Source: a virus (lineage: Duplodnaviria; Heunggongvirae; Uroviricota; Caudoviricetes). Taken from it: a stretch of DNA of 5,230 nt. This document shows, one piece after another, positions 1 through 5,230 of this stretch (position 1 is its first letter; each line of letters begins with the position of its first letter). Made by a program: the position numbers and the translations under genes. Below the pieces are notes generated by a model, which saw only the letters and a list, made by a program, of their open reading frames with translations, was not told the origin of the DNA and did not search any database. The stretch lies in the IMG/VR virus record IMGVR_UViG_2675903433_000005. One strand, written 5' to 3'.

Positions 1-118
1 CCTGCTGACAGAGTCCGGGGTTGGCATCCAGCACCTTTTCGGTGACGCCCCGTGTCGTGCCGTAGTACCGGAAACAGAGCGAATCCACGGTGTCGCCTTC
101 CAGTGCCTTCACTTTCAT
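1..118 (-). CDS. X: Tail protein X (P2 gpX-like), N-terminal 39 codons only; gene continues beyond the window start
   Basis: Minus-strand ATG at 118-116 overlaps the L stop (TGATG). Translation MKVKALEGDTVDSLCFRYYGTTRGVTEKVLDANPGLCQQ resembles the start of P2 gpX as I recall it, and X follows L in P2 gene order. Too short for the ORF track. Confidence 0.6.
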   Translation of the reverse strand, partial: MKVKALEGDTVDSLCFRYYGTTRGVTEKVLDANPGLCQQ

Positions 119-612
119 CAGCACAGCTCCGCAAACATTCGCGGTCGTCCCAGAATGTCAGAGATGGCCCAGCTCACATCGCGCCACAAATCCGATGTCT
201 GTATATCCAGTGCGTCCGCCCGGCGGTCGCCCTTGTCCGTTGTGTCCGCATCGCGGTAACGCTCCAGAATCAGGGCGCGTGTGGCGGTATAAACAGCATT
301 GCGCCAGTGCCAGAGATTGACGCTTTCTCCGTTAATTACAGGGGCCGGAACATCGGCCAGCGTCTGATAGCCAGCCGCCTGTTGTTCCTGCTGCCATGCT
401 TCCAGCTCGCGGGTAACGTGTGCTATGGCCCCGGTGGCGGTATGCAGCAGGCGGGAGGTGGTCACGCGGCCCGGCAGTCGTACCGCCAGACGCAGCTCAC
501 GCAGCACAATATCCGGCCAGAATGCACCCGCTGAAATGCGAGTGTCGCCATCATCGGTATCGGTGATGTCGTCCTCTGCGGGGCCGGGGTTAGTTCTGGC
601 AACCATACTCAT
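118..612 (-). CDS. L: Head completion/stabilisation protein (P2 gpL-like)
   Basis: ORF-track ORF 118..621 resembles P2 gpL, including the motif LADVPA..GES...ERYR....KGD..AD..D....LWRD..WA. The track starts at GTG 621-619; I prefer ATG 612-610 because AGGAG lies 8 nt upstream on the minus strand (reverse complement of 620-624). Stop TGA at 120-118. Confidence 0.85.
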   Translation of the reverse strand: MSMVARTNPGPAEDDITDTDDGDTRISAGAFWPDIVLRELRLAVRLPGRVTTSRLLHTATGAIAHVTRELEAWQQEQQAAGYQTLADVPAPVINGESVNLWHWRNAVYTATRALILERYRDADTTDKGDRRADALDIQTSDLWRDVSWAISDILGRPRMFAELC

Positions 613-713
613 GGGGTTCACTCCTGAAAAAATCGGGCGGTGGGTGCGCGGTGTAAACGGTCACGGAGTCAAACCGGAACACCGCGCACGCCGCCCGCTG
701 ACGGGGTCAGTCG

Positions 714-1514
714 TTAACCGCGCTTTGCCTTCTGCGTCGCGGTGGTTTTTCGTGTTGCAGGCTTCCGCGTTGTCTTTTTATTTTTGCTGCTTTCGTCCTG
801 CGCCTGCTGTGCGCTGGCGTCTTCTGGTTCGGCTGCGGAATCGGCTTTTTTCAGGGCGCGGGAAAGGGTTGCAATCTCGCGTTTCACACCTGCGTTCGGG
901 TTCAGGTGCATCGCTTCGCGCAGCAGCTTCAGTGATGAGGCCATGTTGTCTGCATCGGTCAGGCCACGACGGGCAAAGGCACACGCCTTGCATAATTTGG
1001 CGCGCACTTCGTCCGGAATGTCCTGGTTGGCGACAATTTCCCAAAGTGTGTCCAGTGGTTCGATAAAGGCGGATAAATCCGCGTCGGCATCCGTCCCAGC
1101 CTGCGTCAGTACCGGGTTGCAGATTTCTTCGGTCAGTACCGTGGCAGCAGTACGGCCAAAGTTATCCGGCATGATGAGGTTGTGACGGACCACATATGCA
1201 CCAATACGCAGCGCCAGCGGAAGATCGCCGCAGTCAATCGCCCACACCATCAGCGTGGCAATTACTTCGTCCTGTTGCCCGCCGTCAGCCTCCAGCGTTC
1301 CCTCAATCCAGCCGGAAAAGTCCGGCAACAACTCTTTTTTGATGGCGGCTTTCGCGCTTCTGGCCTGTATGGCCTTTAGCCTGGCCTGTGCCAGACGCAG
1401 ACGATACAGCACTTCTTCATGCGCGGTACACGCGGCGTGGTCCACACCTTCATTCGCCCGGCCTGCGCGCTGTGCCATCACGTTCTGCCAGTGTTGTTGT
1501 GCAGGAGTAATCAT
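714..1514 (-). CDS. M: Terminase small/endonuclease subunit (P2 gpM-like), copy 1
   Basis: 266-aa ORF matching P2 gpM in my recollection (N-terminal PAQ.H motif, central LP.F..W..G.LE....QD....T.M.W..D.GD region, PDEVRAKL, basic C-terminal tail). GGAGAG RBS 7 nt upstream of ATG 1514-1512. Position after N and before L agrees with P2 synteny. Confidence 0.85.
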   Translation of the reverse strand: MITPAQQHWQNVMAQRAGRANEGVDHAACTAHEEVLYRLRLAQARLKAIQARSAKAAIKKELLPDFSGWIEGTLEADGGQQDEVIATLMVWAIDCGDLPLALRIGAYVVRHNLIMPDNFGRTAATVLTEEICNPVLTQAGTDADADLSAFIEPLDTLWEIVANQDIPDEVRAKLCKACAFARRGLTDADNMASSLKLLREAMHLNPNAGVKREIATLSRALKKADSAAEPEDASAQQAQDESSKNKKTTRKPATRKTTATQKAKRG

Positions 1515-1531
1515 TTTTTCTCTCCGTTACA

Positions 1532-1550
1532 GGCGGGCATGATGCCCGCC
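1532..1550 (-). promoter_or_regulatory. GC-rich stem-loop in the spacer between the N-derived stop and M copy 1 (GGCGGGC / 5-nt loop / GCCCGCC)
   Basis: Perfect 7-bp inverted repeat read directly; no U-tract follows on the transcribed strand, so not a canonical intrinsic terminator. Confidence 0.4.
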
Positions 1551-1559
1551 GTGAGTTGA

Positions 1560-1994
1560 TTAGCTGTCGGCGAACTTCAGGCCAGTGACCATCGCGCACT
1601 TGCCATAGTCTTCAACGACATAAGCGTCATTGATGGACTGGTAGGTGGCGATGCGGTTGTATTCCGGCTCGTCTTTCATCAGGCGACGCATTGAACCTTT
1701 CTGCCAGTAAATCGACAGGTTGTTGAACGAGGTGATAAGCATCGTTGCATCCGGGAAGAACGGCGCAAGGAACACGCCCAGCCCGCCAATGGTGCGCGAT
1801 GACAGGATGAGCTGCCCGGCAGTATGCAGCAGGCGGGAGGTGGTCACGCGGCCCGGCAGTCGTACCGCCAGACGCAGCTCGCGCAACACAATATCCGGCC
1901 AGAATGCACCTGCTGAAATGCGAGTGTCGCCATCATCGGTATCGGTGATGTCGTCCTCTGCGGGTCTGGGTTCAGTTCTGGCAACCATACTCAT
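1560..1994 (-). CDS. Chimeric ORF created by the duplication junction: N-terminal ~59 residues of gpL fused in frame to the C-terminal 85 residues of major capsid protein gpN; probably a by-product, function unknown
   Basis: ORF-track ORF 1560..2003: residues MNPMSMVART..RLLHTA match the L N-terminus (2 aa differences), and residues GQLILSSRTIGG..KFADS are identical to the N C-terminus. Same RBS/ATG context as L (ATG 1994-1992). Confidence 0.6.
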   Translation of the reverse strand: MSMVARTEPRPAEDDITDTDDGDTRISAGAFWPDIVLRELRLAVRLPGRVTTSRLLHTAGQLILSSRTIGGLGVFLAPFFPDATMLITSFNNLSIYWQKGSMRRLMKDEPEYNRIATYQSINDAYVVEDYGKCAMVTGLKFADS

Positions 1995-2096
1995 GGGGTT
2001 CACTCCTGAAAAAAATCGGGCGGTGGGTGCGCGGTGTAAACGGTCACGGAGTCAAACCGGAACACCGCGCACGCCGCCCGCTGACGGGGTCAGTCG

Positions 2097-2897
2097 TTAA
2101 CCGCGCTTCGCCTTCTGCGTCGCGGTGGTTTTTCGTGTTGCAGGCTTCCGCGTTGTCTTTTTACTTTTGCTGCTTTCGTCCTGCGCCTGCTGTGCGCTGG
2201 CGTCTTCTGGTGCGGCTGCGGAATCGGCTTTTTTCAGGGCGCGGGAAAGGGTTGCAATCTCGCGTTTCACACCTGCGTTCGGGTTCAGGTGCATTGCTTC
2301 GCGCAGCAGCTTCAGTGACAGGGCCATGCTGTCCGCATCACTCAGGCCACGGCGGGCAAAGGCGCACGCCTTGCATAATTTGGCGCGTACTTCGTCCGGC
2401 ATGTCCTGGTCGGTGACAATCTTCCGGAGGGTGTCCAGTGGTTCGATAAAGGCGGACAAATCCGCGTCGGCATCCGCCCCGGCCTGCGTCAGTACCGGGT
2501 TGCAGATTTCTTCGGTCAGCACTGTGGCAGCAGTACGGCCAAAGTTATCCGGCATAATGAGGTTATGACGGACCACATACGCACCAATACGCAACGCCAG
2601 CGGAAGATCGCCGCAGTCAATCGCCCACACCATCAGCGTGGCAATCACTTCATCCTGCTGCCCGCCGTCAGCCTCCAGCGTTCCCTCAATCCAGCCGGAA
2701 AAATCCGGCAACAACTCTTTTTTGATGGCGGCTTTCGCGCTTCTGGCCTGTACGCCCTTAAGCCGGGCCTGTGCCAGACGCAGACGATACAGCACCTCTT
2801 CATGCGCGGTACGCGCGGCGTGGTCCACGCCTTCATTCGCCCGGCCTGCGCGCTGTGCCATCACGTTCTGCCAGTGTTGCTGTGCAGGAGTAATCAT
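2097..2897 (-). CDS. M: Terminase small/endonuclease subunit (P2 gpM-like), copy 2 (adjacent to N, in the ancestral position)
   Basis: 266-aa ORF, 252/266 identical to copy 1 by manual comparison; GGAGAG RBS upstream of ATG 2897-2895; immediately downstream of N as in P2. Confidence 0.85.
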   Translation of the reverse strand: MITPAQQHWQNVMAQRAGRANEGVDHAARTAHEEVLYRLRLAQARLKGVQARSAKAAIKKELLPDFSGWIEGTLEADGGQQDEVIATLMVWAIDCGDLPLALRIGAYVVRHNLIMPDNFGRTAATVLTEEICNPVLTQAGADADADLSAFIEPLDTLRKIVTDQDMPDEVRAKLCKACAFARRGLSDADSMALSLKLLREAMHLNPNAGVKREIATLSRALKKADSAAAPEDASAQQAQDESSKSKKTTRKPATRKTTATQKAKRG

Positions 2898-2914
2898 TTG
2901 TTCTCTCCGTTACT

Positions 2915-2933
2915 GGCGGGCATGATGCCCGCC
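2915..2933 (-). promoter_or_regulatory. GC-rich stem-loop in the N-M intergenic spacer (duplicate of 1532-1550)
   Basis: Same GGCGGGC-atgat-GCCCGCC inverted repeat between the N stop (2945-2943) and the M start (2897); conserved in both copies although the flanking spacer has 2 substitutions. Confidence 0.4.
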
Positions 2934-2942
2934 GTGAGTTGA

Positions 2943-3995
2943 TTAGCTGTCGGCGAACTTCAGGCCAGTGACCATCGCGCACTTGCCATAGTCTTCAACG
3001 ACATAAGCGTCATTGATGGACTGGTAGGTGGCGATGCGGTTGTATTCCGGCTCGTCTTTCATCAGGCGACGCATTGAACCTTTCTGCCAGTAAATCGACA
3101 GGTTGTTGAACGAGGTGATCAGCATCGTTGCATCCGGGAAGAACGGCGCAAGGAACACGCCCAGCCCGCCAATGGTGCGCGATGACAGGATGAGCTGCCC
3201 GGCGAGTAATTCCGCATTGGGATTCTGGCCGCTGATGCTGTTCAGCACGGGCAGACGCAGCGAGTTAAACAGGTTGCGCCCCATAATCACCACGAGGTCG
3301 TCAGCTTCCTTGTGCCATTCATCCAGCAGGGATGAACGCGCGTCCTGTACCAGTGCATCAGCGTTCGCATACTTACCCGCGTGCGCCACGGTGTTGTCCA
3401 TGTTGCGGGAGGTCAGCGTCACGTCATTCATAACGCGTTCGCTGGCGTCGGTTCTGATGTGCTCCAGCCATCCCACGTTAACGTCCTGAAGCAGCTTGTT
3501 GGTGCTGAAGTTGGACTCATCCGCGTGAGACGTGCCGTTGAAACCGATCATGATGCGGTCAAGCGCCACCTGTCGGGCAATCTGTGCGCTGATGCGGGAC
3601 TGAAAATCAGGGTGTGCCGCCCAGGCATCAAGCTGCGGATATGAAATAAACGTGTCGTAGTTCACCTGTTCGCACTGGTATTTGCGGTTTTTCAGATCAA
3701 CCACGTTATTCGGGTTACGGCGTTTTGTGCCGTCATAACTGGTATTCGTGCGCGCAATCGGCCCGGTGGTATCCAGGAGGATTTTTTCGCCTTTCTGGTC
3801 GGTCACGCCGATCACGTTAATTCTTTTTGTAAATTCGGTGCTTTCCTTTGAGGCGTTTTCAAAACGCTGCTGTACCGAGGGTTCCACGGTAAATCGCGAT
3901 ACCAGTGCGGAAACCGGGATATTGTTAAGCGACGCCTGCTGCGCCATATAGCAACCCAGCTTGTTGCGGGTAATATCTGACATCACCAGATTCAT
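2943..3995 (-). CDS. N: Major capsid protein (P2 gpN-like)
   Basis: 350-aa ORF with recognisable similarity to P2 gpN from memory (FTVEPSV.Q, GEKI, NKY.C.Q.N.D, GFNG, LQDV.VGWL, DLVVI.GR, YFPAD.MLIT, ENLSIY, YVVEDY). AAGGAG lies 10 nt upstream of ATG 3995-3993. Confidence 0.9.
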   Translation of the reverse strand: MNLVMSDITRNKLGCYMAQQASLNNIPVSALVSRFTVEPSVQQRFENASKESTEFTKRINVIGVTDQKGEKILLDTTGPIARTNTSYDGTKRRNPNNVVDLKNRKYQCEQVNYDTFISYPQLDAWAAHPDFQSRISAQIARQVALDRIMIGFNGTSHADESNFSTNKLLQDVNVGWLEHIRTDASERVMNDVTLTSRNMDNTVAHAGKYANADALVQDARSSLLDEWHKEADDLVVIMGRNLFNSLRLPVLNSISGQNPNAELLAGQLILSSRTIGGLGVFLAPFFPDATMLITSFNNLSIYWQKGSMRRLMKDEPEYNRIATYQSINDAYVVEDYGKCAMVTGLKFADS

Positions 3996-4018
3996 AAAAA
4001 ATTTGCTCCTTTGTCTTA

Positions 4019-4855
4019 TCAGAAGTCAGCCAGCTGGTCGGAGGCTGCGCCCGTTGCGGTGAAGCGGTTCTGCGGATCGCCGTCCTGCGTGCGCAGTTTT
4101 TCCTTCAGTGCTGCCAGCTCTGTGGTCAGTGACGTAATTTTCTGGCGGTCCTGCTGATGGCGGGTTTCCAGCACATTAAAACGGTCGATAATGTCGGCCT
4201 GTGACGTTGCGACGCCTTCCACCGCTTCCTGAATACGGGAAAAACTGGCGTCATCCGCTTTGCGGCCACGGCCAATAATCCCCATTACGCGGTTAAACCA
4301 CTGGGTGCCTTCTTCCTGGCGTTGTTCTGCCATTTCGATGATTTCAGACTCGATGGCTTCGGAGATAAGCGGCGCTTCACCCTGGACACTGTTGAACGTC
4401 ATTACCGCCTGACGTTGCTGTGCCGTGAATTTCAGGCGCTCAGTGCCCAGGCTCGCCGGGGTGTCGGTCATCGCCAGCCCGACCAGATAGGCGCGCCCGT
4501 TAACGGAGAACTGCGGGTGCAGTTCGATACTGGAATAGATTTTCTTGCCGTCAGCGACAAGCTGCTTCATGCGCTCGGTCGGTTCGATTTCTGCATACAG
4601 CGCAGTACGTCCGGCCAGCGGGCCTTCCGTAATATCTTCCGTACTCAGCGCGGTGACATCGCCCATTGCGGAAAATTCGCTTGACGGGCATGGCGAGAGA
4701 TAGTGCTCAACGTTCACGCGGGCAGCGTAAACATCCGGGTTGAAGTTCTCGGCGGCTTCACGCAGATGTACCGGGCTGATTTCGCGGCCATCAACAGTTG
4801 ATCCGGAGACAGCCACGCGAAACTTTTTGCGGGATGTCTTTTTTTCATTAGCCAT
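4019..4855 (-). CDS. O: Capsid scaffolding protein / prohead protease (P2 gpO-like)
   Basis: ORF-track ORF 4019..4888; I place the start at the internal ATG 4855-4853 (MANEKKTSRKKFRVAVSGSTVDGR...). This aligns with the P2 gpO N-terminus (MAKKVSKFFRIGVEGDTCDGR...) and has a GAGGGG RBS 8 nt upstream. Also shares SIEL.P.F...G..YLVGLA.TD.PASLGTE with gpO. Confidence 0.85.
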   Translation of the reverse strand: MANEKKTSRKKFRVAVSGSTVDGREISPVHLREAAENFNPDVYAARVNVEHYLSPCPSSEFSAMGDVTALSTEDITEGPLAGRTALYAEIEPTERMKQLVADGKKIYSSIELHPQFSVNGRAYLVGLAMTDTPASLGTERLKFTAQQRQAVMTFNSVQGEAPLISEAIESEIIEMAEQRQEEGTQWFNRVMGIIGRGRKADDASFSRIQEAVEGVATSQADIIDRFNVLETRHQQDRQKITSLTTELAALKEKLRTQDGDPQNRFTATGAASDQLADF

Positions 4856-5009
4856 AGTTTTTGCCCCTCTGACTGGTTCTTCAGTCATGATGGCAAAGCG
4901 TAACAGGCTGATACAAAGGGCTTTTGTTGTAAGAAAACAGTCAGAACAGGGGGTTAAGGAGAACGGTTTCGCGCGCGGGTAATCTTCCTGTAATTACTCA
5001 GGGGGAGCA
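4856..5009. promoter_or_regulatory. Divergent intergenic control region between O (leftward) and P (rightward); expected to hold the two late promoters
   Basis: 154-bp non-coding gap between divergently oriented start codons, matching the P2 P<->O arrangement. Contains imperfect dyads ACAAAgggcTTTTGT (4913-4927) and TGTTGTaagAAAACA (4925-4939). No promoter was verified. Confidence 0.5.
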
Positions 5010-5230
5010 ATGATTCAGGACGCTTTTGTGCGCCAGCGTGCGCGGCAACTTTACTGGCAGGGTTATCCGCCCGCAGAAATATCACGTCTGATGGGAATAA
5101 ACCCGAACACGATTTATGCGTGGAAAAAACGCGACCAGTGGGATGAAACGCCACCCGTGCAGCGTGTCACGCAGTCCATCGATGCGCGCCTCATCCAGCT
5201 CACTGAAAAACAGAATAAAACAGGTGGTGA
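5010..5230 (+). CDS. P: Terminase ATPase (large) subunit (P2 gpP-like), N-terminal part; continues beyond the window end
   Basis: ATG at 5010 preceded by GGGGGAG (5001-5007). Translation MIQDAFVRQRARQLYWQGYPPAEISRLMGINPNTIYAWKKRDQWDE... has an HTH-like N-terminus typical of P2-family terminase ATPase subunits, and the gene is divergent from O as in P2. Confidence 0.7.
   Translation, partial: MIQDAFVRQRARQLYWQGYPPAEISRLMGINPNTIYAWKKRDQWDETPPVQRVTQSIDARLIQLTEKQNKTGG

What the first reader, a model, noticed from the sequence alone, without database searches (positions are those of the whole stretch)
1515..1821. Mosaic divergence between the two repeat copies: the N-derived segment is nearly identical, the L'/M segments are not
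The N-derived segment 1560-1821 differs from 2943-3203 at a single, synonymous position (1737 a versus 3120 c) in about 260 bp. Divergence starts in the 45-bp N-M spacer (2 differences). The L 5' part has about 7 differences in 182 bp, and M has 14 amino-acid differences plus synonymous changes. A simple recent duplication would give uniformly identical copies and an old one uniformly diverged copies. The pattern implies later gene conversion or homogenisation of the N part, or that the two copies come from two related phages that recombined.
Basis: seen in the sequence. Interest (0 to 1): 0.55.

Follow-up and report, generated by a model that had tools for sequence, protein, structure and literature searches.

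The report
Hybrid tandem duplication from two phages
The uneven divergence between the two repeat copies is real, but it was inherited: the repeat joins two different naturally occurring P2-like (P88-type) E. coli prophage lineages that already differ in this patchy way, so no later homogenisation is needed.

Summary
The 1.38-kb copies (440-1820 and 1822-3203) differ at 53 substitutions and 1 indel. The spread is uneven: 1 in 289 bp over N' plus spacer, 41 in 605 bp over the M 5' two-thirds, 4 in 305 bp, and 7 in 182 bp. A uniform rate is rejected.

The cause is neither post-duplication decay nor homogenisation.
- Window 1-1821 (N' fragment, M_A, L) matches a common single-copy prophage (e.g. 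E. coli O26 RM8426) at all but 1 base.
- Window 1822-5230 (L' fragment, M_B, N, O, P') matches the single-copy prophage of E. coli TK3046 at all but 6 bases.
- 51 of the 53 inter-copy substitutions are also differences between two natural single-copy prophages, with near-identical per-segment counts (2/2/39/4/0/7 against 1/2/39/4/0/7).
- Both M proteins are exact natural alleles.
- 28% of comparably diverged natural pairs also contain a run of at least 289 bp with at most 1 difference.

The junction is a clean, in-frame illegitimate join at a 3-nt microhomology (GCC). It was found in no other sequence searched.

Verdict: this is ordinary P2-like phage mosaicism captured in an unusual hybrid duplication. 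Gene conversion is unnecessary and could explain at most one site, 1683. Assembly artefact cannot be excluded without reads.

The parts
5009..5230 (+). 5' end of the terminase large subunit gene (P2 P equivalent). It lies in the B-lineage arm, outside the repeat.
   Evidence: Annotated as terminase large subunit in the collinear TK3046 prophage. Window 3204-5230 differs from TK3046 at 2 sites and from the A-type RM8426 prophage at 42.
4019..4855 (-). O, the capsid scaffold/protease gene, B-lineage arm.
   Evidence: Pfam PF05929, 1.5e-90. The exact protein is common in single-copy prophages.
2943..3995 (-). N, the complete major capsid gene. Its last 261 nt (2943-3203) begin repeat copy B.
   Evidence: Pfam PF05125, 8.6e-119. 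Nucleotide-identical to TK3046 over 1927-4063.
1822..3203 (-). Repeat copy B (N 3' end, spacer, M_B, spacer, L 5' fragment), of TK3046-like lineage.
2097..2897 (-). M_B, an intact terminase small subunit gene of the less common natural allele.
   Evidence: Pfam PF05944, 3.3e-37. The exact protein is indexed in 340 blocks of the assembly collection. All six single-copy O-N-M-L loci shown are single-copy.
1821..2003 (-). L', the 5' fragment of the head-completion gene. It is B-lineage up to the junction base 1821.
   Evidence: Junction alignment. Pfam PF05926 profile positions 1-34 only.
1818..1820 (-). Novel junction: a 3-nt microhomology (GCC on the gene strand) shared by L codon Ala and N Ala265.
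   Evidence: The junction was found in none of about 1030 E. coli genomes carrying the genes, nor in GTDB genomes, IMG/VR or JGI metagenomes.
1560..1820 (-). N', the 3' fragment of the capsid gene (residues 265-350), carrying the A-lineage allele at 1737.
   Evidence: Pfam PF05125 profile positions 246-324.
1560..2003 (-). In-frame L'::N' fusion ORF (147 aa counted from the GTG).
   Evidence: No identical protein is on record.
440..1820 (-). Repeat copy A (N' fragment, spacer, M_A, spacer, L 5' part), of O26/RM8426-like lineage.
714..1514 (-). M_A, an intact terminase small subunit gene of the very common natural allele.
   Evidence: Pfam PF05944, 7.4e-37. The exact protein is indexed in 10251 blocks of the assembly collection, and the loci shown are single-copy.
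118..621 (-). L, the complete head completion/stabilisation gene (annotated start is the ATG at 612), A-lineage arm.
   Evidence: Pfam PF05926, 2.9e-47. Window 1-439 has 0 differences from RM8426-type loci and 24 from TK3046.

Best explanation
The window is the head-gene block (P <- | -> O N M L, genes on the minus strand) of a P88-type P2-like prophage (Peduoviridae, genus Xuanwuvirus) of E. coli. It carries a 1.38-kb tandem duplication whose two copies were never identical.

The upstream part (P', O, N, M_B, L') comes from a TK3046-like lineage, called B here. The downstream part (N', M_A, L) comes from the common O26/RM8426-like lineage, called A here. The two are joined out of register. 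L codon Thr-Ala of B joins N Ala265 of A at a 3-nt microhomology (GCC), and the join is in frame.

The mosaic divergence between the copies is therefore the pre-existing mosaic divergence between lineages A and B. In this heavily recombining phage population those two lineages happen to share an almost identical N 3' block and differ strongly in the M 5' two-thirds.

Shown: the lineage assignment of each half, the shared polymorphisms and the junction anatomy.

Inferred: the order of events. I favour, about 2:1, a single illegitimate (microhomology-mediated) exchange or template switch between two co-resident, non-identical phage genomes. The alternative is a B-B duplication later overwritten from the right by homologous recombination with an A-type phage.

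The confidence figure refers to the two-lineage, inherited-mosaic claim.
For: - Window 1-1821 differs from L001-L004, L006, L093, L094 and L096 at 1 site, 1683.
- Window 1822-5230 differs from TK3046 at 6 sites, with none between 1927 and 4063.
- The flanks outside the repeat have different lineages. Window 3204-5230 has 2 differences from TK3046 and 42 from RM8426. Window 1-439 has 0 differences from RM8426 and 24 from TK3046.
- 51 of the 53 inter-copy substitutions are also differences between natural L006 and L012. Per-segment counts are 2/2/39/4/0/7 for the natural pair and 1/2/39/4/0/7 for the copies.
- Both M proteins are exact natural alleles, indexed in 10251 and 340 blocks, in single-copy loci.
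- The natural population is highly recombinant. The minimum number of recombination events (Hudson-Kaplan Rm) is 50 in the 1381-bp unit among 117 distinct sequences.
- 28% of natural pairs with 43-63 differences contain a run of at least 289 bp with at most 1 difference. 9.5% of pairs with comparable M divergence have at most 1 difference in the N 3' segment.
- Junction base 1821 carries the B-type L allele, and 1737, 84 bp inside N', carries the A-type allele. This is what a direct B-to-A out-of-register join predicts.
- Recombination among close P2 relatives is established in the literature (PMC3448106, citing Nilsson & Haggard-Ljungquist 2001).
Against: - No sampled natural prophage matches either half perfectly.
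- Copy A has the B-type base at 1683, which none of the near-identical A-type relatives has. No complete E. coli genome is 100% identical to window 1-1820.
- The L' fragment differs from TK3046 at four clustered sites (1886, 1911, 1923, 1926). Of these, 1886 is seen on this haplotype in no relative.
- These features require slightly different, unsampled parents, or small later events.
- The source genome and its reads are unavailable, so neither co-residence of two prophages nor the physical reality of the junction could be checked.
Confidence: 0.82

Rival explanations
1. Two-step origin. This gives the same answer to the finding but a different order of events. An ordinary sister-strand tandem duplication arose within a B-type phage (B-B). 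Homologous recombination with an A-type phage then replaced the second copy and everything downstream.
For: - Homo-duplications should arise more often than inter-phage illegitimate joins.
- Homologous exchange is pervasive in this population: Rm is 50 and all four allele combinations occur at sites 1683 and 1737.
- The A-B-A allele pattern at 1737, 1683 and 1531 could be patchy heteroduplex repair.
Against: The left crossover would have to fall in the 84 bp between the junction and 1737. That is about 6% of the unit if crossovers are uniform. The mirror version (A-A, then B replacing the left) is effectively excluded, because the base next to the junction, 1821, is already B-type.
Confidence: 0.25
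2. Post-duplication gene conversion (concerted evolution) homogenised the N-derived segment, while M and L' were left diverged.
For: At 1683/3066 both copies share a base that differs from all near-identical A-type relatives. Two L' sites (1923, 1926) carry the allele of copy A rather than that of TK3046.
Against: - The natural parental lineages differ at only 2 sites in this 261-bp segment, so conversion could at most change 2 differences to 1.
- The 'CT' haplotype of copy A occurs in 13 of 125 natural loci, including L099, an A-clade relative.
- The CT-A allele string of L' occurs in 14 natural loci.
- Conversion cannot explain why M_A and M_B are each exact natural alleles.
Confidence: 0.04
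3. Assembly or library artefact. The source strain or sample holds two P88-like prophages (A and B), and a chimeric read or misjoin produced an apparent tandem duplication.
For: - The junction is unique. It is absent from 5426 complete E. coli genomes, GTDB representatives, IMG/VR and JGI metagenomes.
- The fusion protein is not on record.
- About one in ten carrier genomes has two or more such prophages: 1281 places in 1136 genomes.
Against: - The join has only 3 nt of microhomology and lies between non-homologous positions. A repeat-induced or k-mer-graph misjoin between two homologous prophages would instead cross at a homologous position and give a single-copy chimera.
- All flanking genes are left intact and the fusion is in frame. 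In-frame is expected by chance 1 time in 3.
Confidence: 0.1
4. An old duplication with uniform mutation, plus stronger purifying selection on the N-derived segment.
For: Population diversity is somewhat lower in the N 3' segment (pi 0.0215) than in the M 5' part (pi 0.036).
Against: - That ratio of about 1.7-fold cannot give the observed 17-fold contrast (0.4% against 6.6%).
- N' is a truncated fragment with no obvious constraint.
- 51 of the 53 differences are pre-existing polymorphisms, not private mutations.
Confidence: 0.01

Closest known systems
Mosaicism by homologous recombination among closely related P2-like phages (Nilsson & Haggard-Ljungquist 2001, as cited in PMC3448106; more generally De Paepe et al. 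2014, PMC3945230)
   Same: Blocks of near-identity alternate with blocks of 5-7% divergence between related prophages. The same patchy pattern is seen between any two natural P88-like prophages sampled here.
   Different: Here the two lineages sit side by side in one molecule as the two copies of a tandem repeat, rather than as alleles in different genomes.
Tandem duplications in phage genomes formed by illegitimate recombination. Examples recalled from my own knowledge and not retrieved from the paper library: classical P2 duplications mapped by electron microscopy, Chattoraj & Inman 1974, and lambda duplication mutants.
   Same: A head-to-tail direct repeat of about 1.4 kb with a novel junction at a very short microhomology. 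The essential genes remain intact: one full N, one full L and M present twice.
   Different: The classical cases are homo-duplications selected in the laboratory. This one is heteroallelic (copies 96% identical, from two lineages) and was found in a natural sequence.
Escherichia phage P88 and relatives (genus Xuanwuvirus, family Peduoviridae)
   Same: 95-98% nucleotide identity across the window, and the same gene order P, O, N, M, L.
   Different: All 16 phage records, all 142 related loci that were aligned to a single-copy version of the window (L001-L142), and about 1030 E. coli genomes carry the block in single copy.

Membership tests
P2-family (Peduoviridae, P88-type) head-gene module | Divergent P and O-N-M-L genes with the family-specific scaffold, capsid, small terminase and head-completion proteins | tested here: met
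   Pfam PF05929, PF05125, PF05944 (twice) and PF05926, all far above their cut-offs. RefSeq annotation of the collinear TK3046 prophage agrees. Identity to P88-like phages is 95-98%.
Tandem duplication by illegitimate (microhomology) recombination | Two head-to-tail copies and one novel junction between non-homologous positions that share only a few bases | tested here: met
   Copies at 440-1820 and 1822-3203. The junction is L ...CATACT GCC | GGGCAG... N, with a 3-nt GCC overlap.
Simple duplication followed by clock-like divergence | Differences spread uniformly and private to the duplicated genome | tested here: not met
   The uniform model is rejected. 51 of the 53 differences are shared with natural single-copy prophages.
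Concerted evolution / intragenomic gene conversion of the N segment | The converted segment departs from its own parental lineage towards the other copy at several sites | tested here: not met
   The parental lineages differ at only 2 sites in the segment. Copy A departs from its lineage at one of them (1683), and natural haplotypes with that combination exist.
Inter-lineage recombinant (hybrid of two phages) | Each side of the breakpoint, including the flanks outside the repeat, is closest to a different natural lineage | tested here: met
   Window 1-1821 has 1 difference from the RM8426 type and 78 from TK3046. Window 1822-5230 has 6 differences from TK3046 and 97 from RM8426.
Assembly artefact | The junction is unsupported by reads that span it | not testable with these tools
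   No reads or source genome are available. Indirectly, the 3-nt microhomology argues against a repeat-graph misjoin.

The most novel reading that the evidence does not exclude
The structure is a real, packageable phage genome caught as an intermediate of inter-phage illegitimate recombination. It would express two different terminase small-subunit alleles (14 amino-acid differences, clustered at residues 158-193) and an L'::N' fusion protein from the late operon. The heteroallelic repeat could then collapse by RecA-dependent recombination at any point, producing new mosaic M alleles. That would make it a 'duplicate, then resolve' route to mosaicism, or a way of broadening packaging specificity.
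Probability: 0.07. Interest if true: 0.5.

Novelty: new member of a known kind. Interest (0 to 1): 0.25.

Why it matters
The case shows how to read uneven divergence between repeat copies in phage DNA. The copies should first be compared with the natural population before gene conversion is invoked. Here the population data show that the pattern is inherited from two lineages.

The duplication itself is a minor curiosity. It is a unique, heteroallelic tandem duplication within the late head operon of a very common E. coli prophage type. It leaves all essential genes intact and creates one in-frame capsid/head-completion fusion.

If the junction is real, it is direct sequence evidence for an out-of-register exchange between two different co-resident P2-like phages. 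It does not open a new biological question.

Tried and rejected
- Searched for the junction elsewhere: a 200-nt junction query against 5426 complete E. coli genomes, and exact-pattern scans of GTDB genomes, IMG/VR and JGI metagenomes. No hit, so no second instance and no source genome.
- Exact look-ups of the fusion protein from two alternative starts: not on record.
- Look-up of the O protein, hoping to reach the source contig. It returned only ordinary single-copy prophages, and none was closer to the B arm than TK3046.
- Checked the 142 related loci held at that point (L001-L142) for any duplication: none. Two had deletions.
- Considered that the four clustered differences in L' (1886-1926) are junction-associated mutations. 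Rejected for three of them, because the allele string occurs in natural haplotypes such as FHI_NMBU_03. Only 1886 remains private.
- Considered purifying selection as the cause of N' identity. Rejected on population diversity.
- Terminator and promoter scan: nothing on the gene strand.
- Literature searches for P2 tandem duplications found no relevant paper in the library. The 1974 reference is from memory only.

Full report
**What is there.** On the minus strand the window carries the head-gene block of a P2-like prophage.
- P' (terminase large subunit 5' end) is on the plus strand from 5009.
- O (scaffold) is at 4019-4855.
- N (major capsid) is at 2943-3995.
- M (terminase small subunit) is at 2097-2897.
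- A 147-codon in-frame fusion, L'::N', joins the first 61 codons of L (head completion) to the last 86 codons of N. It lies at 1560-2003.
- A second M is at 714-1514 and a complete L is at 118-621.

These assignments rest on the ORF list and Pfam. Pfam places the fusion on Phage_GPL profile positions 1-34 and Phage_cap_P2 positions 246-324. The RefSeq annotation of a collinear prophage agrees. The closest named phages are P88 and its relatives, genus Xuanwuvirus, family Peduoviridae. The structure is a tandem duplication of a 1.38-kb unit, with copy A at 440-1820 and copy B at 1822-3203.

| Segment | Length | Differences between copies |
|---|---|---|
| N' 1560-1820 vs 2943-3203 | 261 bp | 1 (1737 A, 3120 C; synonymous) |
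| N-M spacer | 45 bp | 2 (1517, 1531) |
| M | 801 bp | 43 nucleotide, 14 amino-acid |
| M-L spacer | 92 bp | one 1-bp indel (626/2009) |
| L 5' part | 182 bp | 7 |

In total there are 53 substitutions in 1381 aligned sites. A uniform rate is rejected:
- 1 difference in 289 bp gives p = 3e-4.
- The best-interval permutation test gives p <= 0.003.
- A run of at least 289 bp with at most 1 difference occurs in only 0.16% of uniform simulations.

There are three refinements.
- The M 3' end plus the M-L spacer is also a low-divergence block, with 4 differences in 305 bp.
- The divergence peak is at 931-1050, with 18 differences in 120 bp.
- Base 1821 belongs to L', not to N'.

**What explains it.** Both M proteins are exact natural alleles found in ordinary single-copy O-N-M-L prophages. 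M_A is indexed in 10251 blocks of the assembly collection and M_B in 340. The nucleotide comparison is decisive.
- Window 1-1821 (N', M_A, L) differs from eight natural loci, including E. coli O26 RM8426, at one base, 1683.
- Window 1822-5230 (L', M_B, N, O, P') differs from the single-copy prophage of E. coli TK3046 at six bases. There are none between 1927 and 4063.
- The flanks outside the repeat also belong to different lineages. Window 3204-5230 has 2 differences from TK3046 and 42 from RM8426. Window 1-439 has 0 differences from RM8426 and 24 from TK3046.
- Of the 53 substitutions between the copies, 51 are also differences between two natural single-copy prophages, L006 and L012.
- The per-segment counts match almost exactly. 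For N3'/spacer/M5'/M3'/spacer/L5', the natural pair gives 2/2/39/4/0/7 and the copies give 1/2/39/4/0/7.

So the copies did not diverge after duplication, and the N part was not homogenised. The patchiness was inherited from two lineages that already share a nearly identical N 3' block.

**Is such patchiness unusual in this phage group?** It is not. I aligned 125 natural single-copy relatives (117 distinct sequences) drawn from NCBI assemblies and IMG/VR.
- The minimum number of recombination events (Hudson-Kaplan Rm) within the 1381-bp unit is 50. 27% of informative site pairs show all four allele combinations.
- Among natural pairs with 43-63 differences in the unit, 28% contain a run of at least 289 bp with at most 1 difference.
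- Among pairs with M divergence like that of A and B, 9.5% have at most 1 difference in the N 3' segment, and 35% have at most 2.
- The N 3' segment is not specially constrained. Its diversity (pi 0.0215) is only about 1.7-fold below that of the M 5' part (pi 0.036), so purifying selection does not explain the 17-fold contrast.
- Recombination among close P2 relatives is documented (PMC3448106).

**The junction.** On the gene strand:
- The B-type L reads ...CTGCATACT GCC ACCGGG...
- N reads ...GAATTACTC GCC GGGCAG...
- The window reads ...CTGCATACT GCC GGGCAG...

This is a clean join at a 3-nt microhomology (1818-1820), and it is in frame. Base 1821 carries the B-type L allele; A-type L has the other base. 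Site 1737, 84 bp into N', carries the A-type allele.

The junction is absent from every collection searched:
- About 1030 E. coli genomes that carry the genes. No place in them covers more than 55% of a 200-nt junction query.
- GTDB species representatives, IMG/VR and JGI metagenomes.
- All 16 phage records.
- All 142 related loci held at that point, L001-L142.

The fusion protein is not on record.

**Mechanism.** I commit to a hybrid tandem duplication formed from two different P88-like genomes in one cell. About one in ten carrier genomes has two or more such prophages.

I favour a single illegitimate, microhomology-mediated exchange or template switch, from L of a B-type genome into N of an A-type genome. 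That event places B-type sequence up to the junction and A-type sequence from it, as observed.

The alternative is a B-B duplication followed by homologous replacement of the right-hand part by an A-type phage. It is possible, but it needs a crossover within the 84 bp between the junction and 1737. An A-A origin is effectively excluded by the B-type base at 1821. The order of events is an inference. The two-lineage origin is shown.

**Residual details.**
- Copy A carries C (gene strand) at 1683, whereas all near-identical A-type relatives have T. No complete E. coli genome matches window 1-1820 perfectly.
- This could be an unsampled A-clade variant. The C-T combination at 1683 and 1737 occurs in 13 of 125 loci, and L099, four differences from copy A, has it.
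- It could also be a point mutation, or a conversion patch of at most 205 bp from the other copy. One site cannot decide between these.
- L' differs from TK3046 at 1886, 1911, 1923 and 1926. The alleles at the last three occur together in natural haplotypes, for example FHI_NMBU_03, which matches 1818-1966 except at 1886. Only 1886 is private.

**Caveat.** Without the source genome or its reads I cannot prove that the junction exists in a real molecule. A repeat-graph misassembly of two homologous prophages would cross at a homologous position, not at a 3-nt overlap between L and N. A chimeric template would therefore be needed. I give the artefact reading about 10%.

**Verdict.** The 'two related phages' reading is right, and the gene-conversion reading is unnecessary. 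The mosaic pattern itself is ordinary P2-like phage mosaicism. The only uncommon element is that the two lineages are held together in a unique heteroallelic tandem duplication, which makes this a new member of a known kind and of low to moderate interest.

Noticed in passing
window 1560-2003 (-): The duplication junction creates an in-frame 147-aa ORF. It fuses the N-terminal 61 residues of head-completion protein L to the C-terminal 86 residues of capsid protein N, inside the late O-N-M-L operon. If expressed it might interfere with capsid assembly. No identical protein is on record.
   Followed up: partly
window 1533-1551 and 2916-2934 (gene strand GGCGGGCAU-CAU-GCCCGCC): A GC-rich hairpin sits in the N-M spacer and is kept in both copies (MFE -17.6 kcal/mol; z-scores -2.65 and -3.14). 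No T-run follows it. It may be an mRNA-stabilising or attenuating structure after the abundant capsid gene. The two spacer differences lie outside the stem: 1531 is adjacent to it, and 1517 is between the M Shine-Dalgarno sequence and the start codon.
   Followed up: partly
window 931-1050 / 2314-2433 (M residues about 158-193): Nine of the 14 amino-acid differences between the M alleles cluster at residues 158-166 and 186-193, at the C-terminal edge of, and just beyond, the Pfam small-terminase domain (36-169). This stretch is also the diversity peak of the unit in the natural population (pi 0.069 per 100 bp).
   Followed up: no
window about 4330-4830 (O gene 5' half): Natural P88-like prophages have very high diversity here (pi 0.11-0.15 per 100-bp window). 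The adjacent P 5' end and the O-P promoter region are below 0.02. This indicates deeply diverged allele classes for the scaffold/protease N-terminal part.
   Followed up: no
L115 (IMG/VR 2721755712_000003) and L119 (IMG/VR 2571042390_000006): Two related viral contigs have internal deletions relative to the single-copy reference (reference positions 241-1260 and 168-1571). These remove most of O and part of N, so the prophages are probably defective.
   Followed up: no
L001-L005, locus coordinates 8855-10732: Five of the six A-type loci shown carry an extra 625-aa gene (Pfam SASA, DUF6645, weak DUF1737) between the lysis genes and tail gene R. It is absent from RM8426 (L006) and from the B-type loci. 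It is probably a cargo gene (moron).
   Followed up: no
window 1886 and 1683: Two single-base peculiarities. The allele at 1886 in the L' fragment is found on this haplotype in none of about 1000 E. coli prophage copies. The allele at 1683 in N' matches the other repeat copy rather than copy A's own lineage. Either may be a private mutation, an unsampled variant or a short conversion patch.
   Followed up: partly
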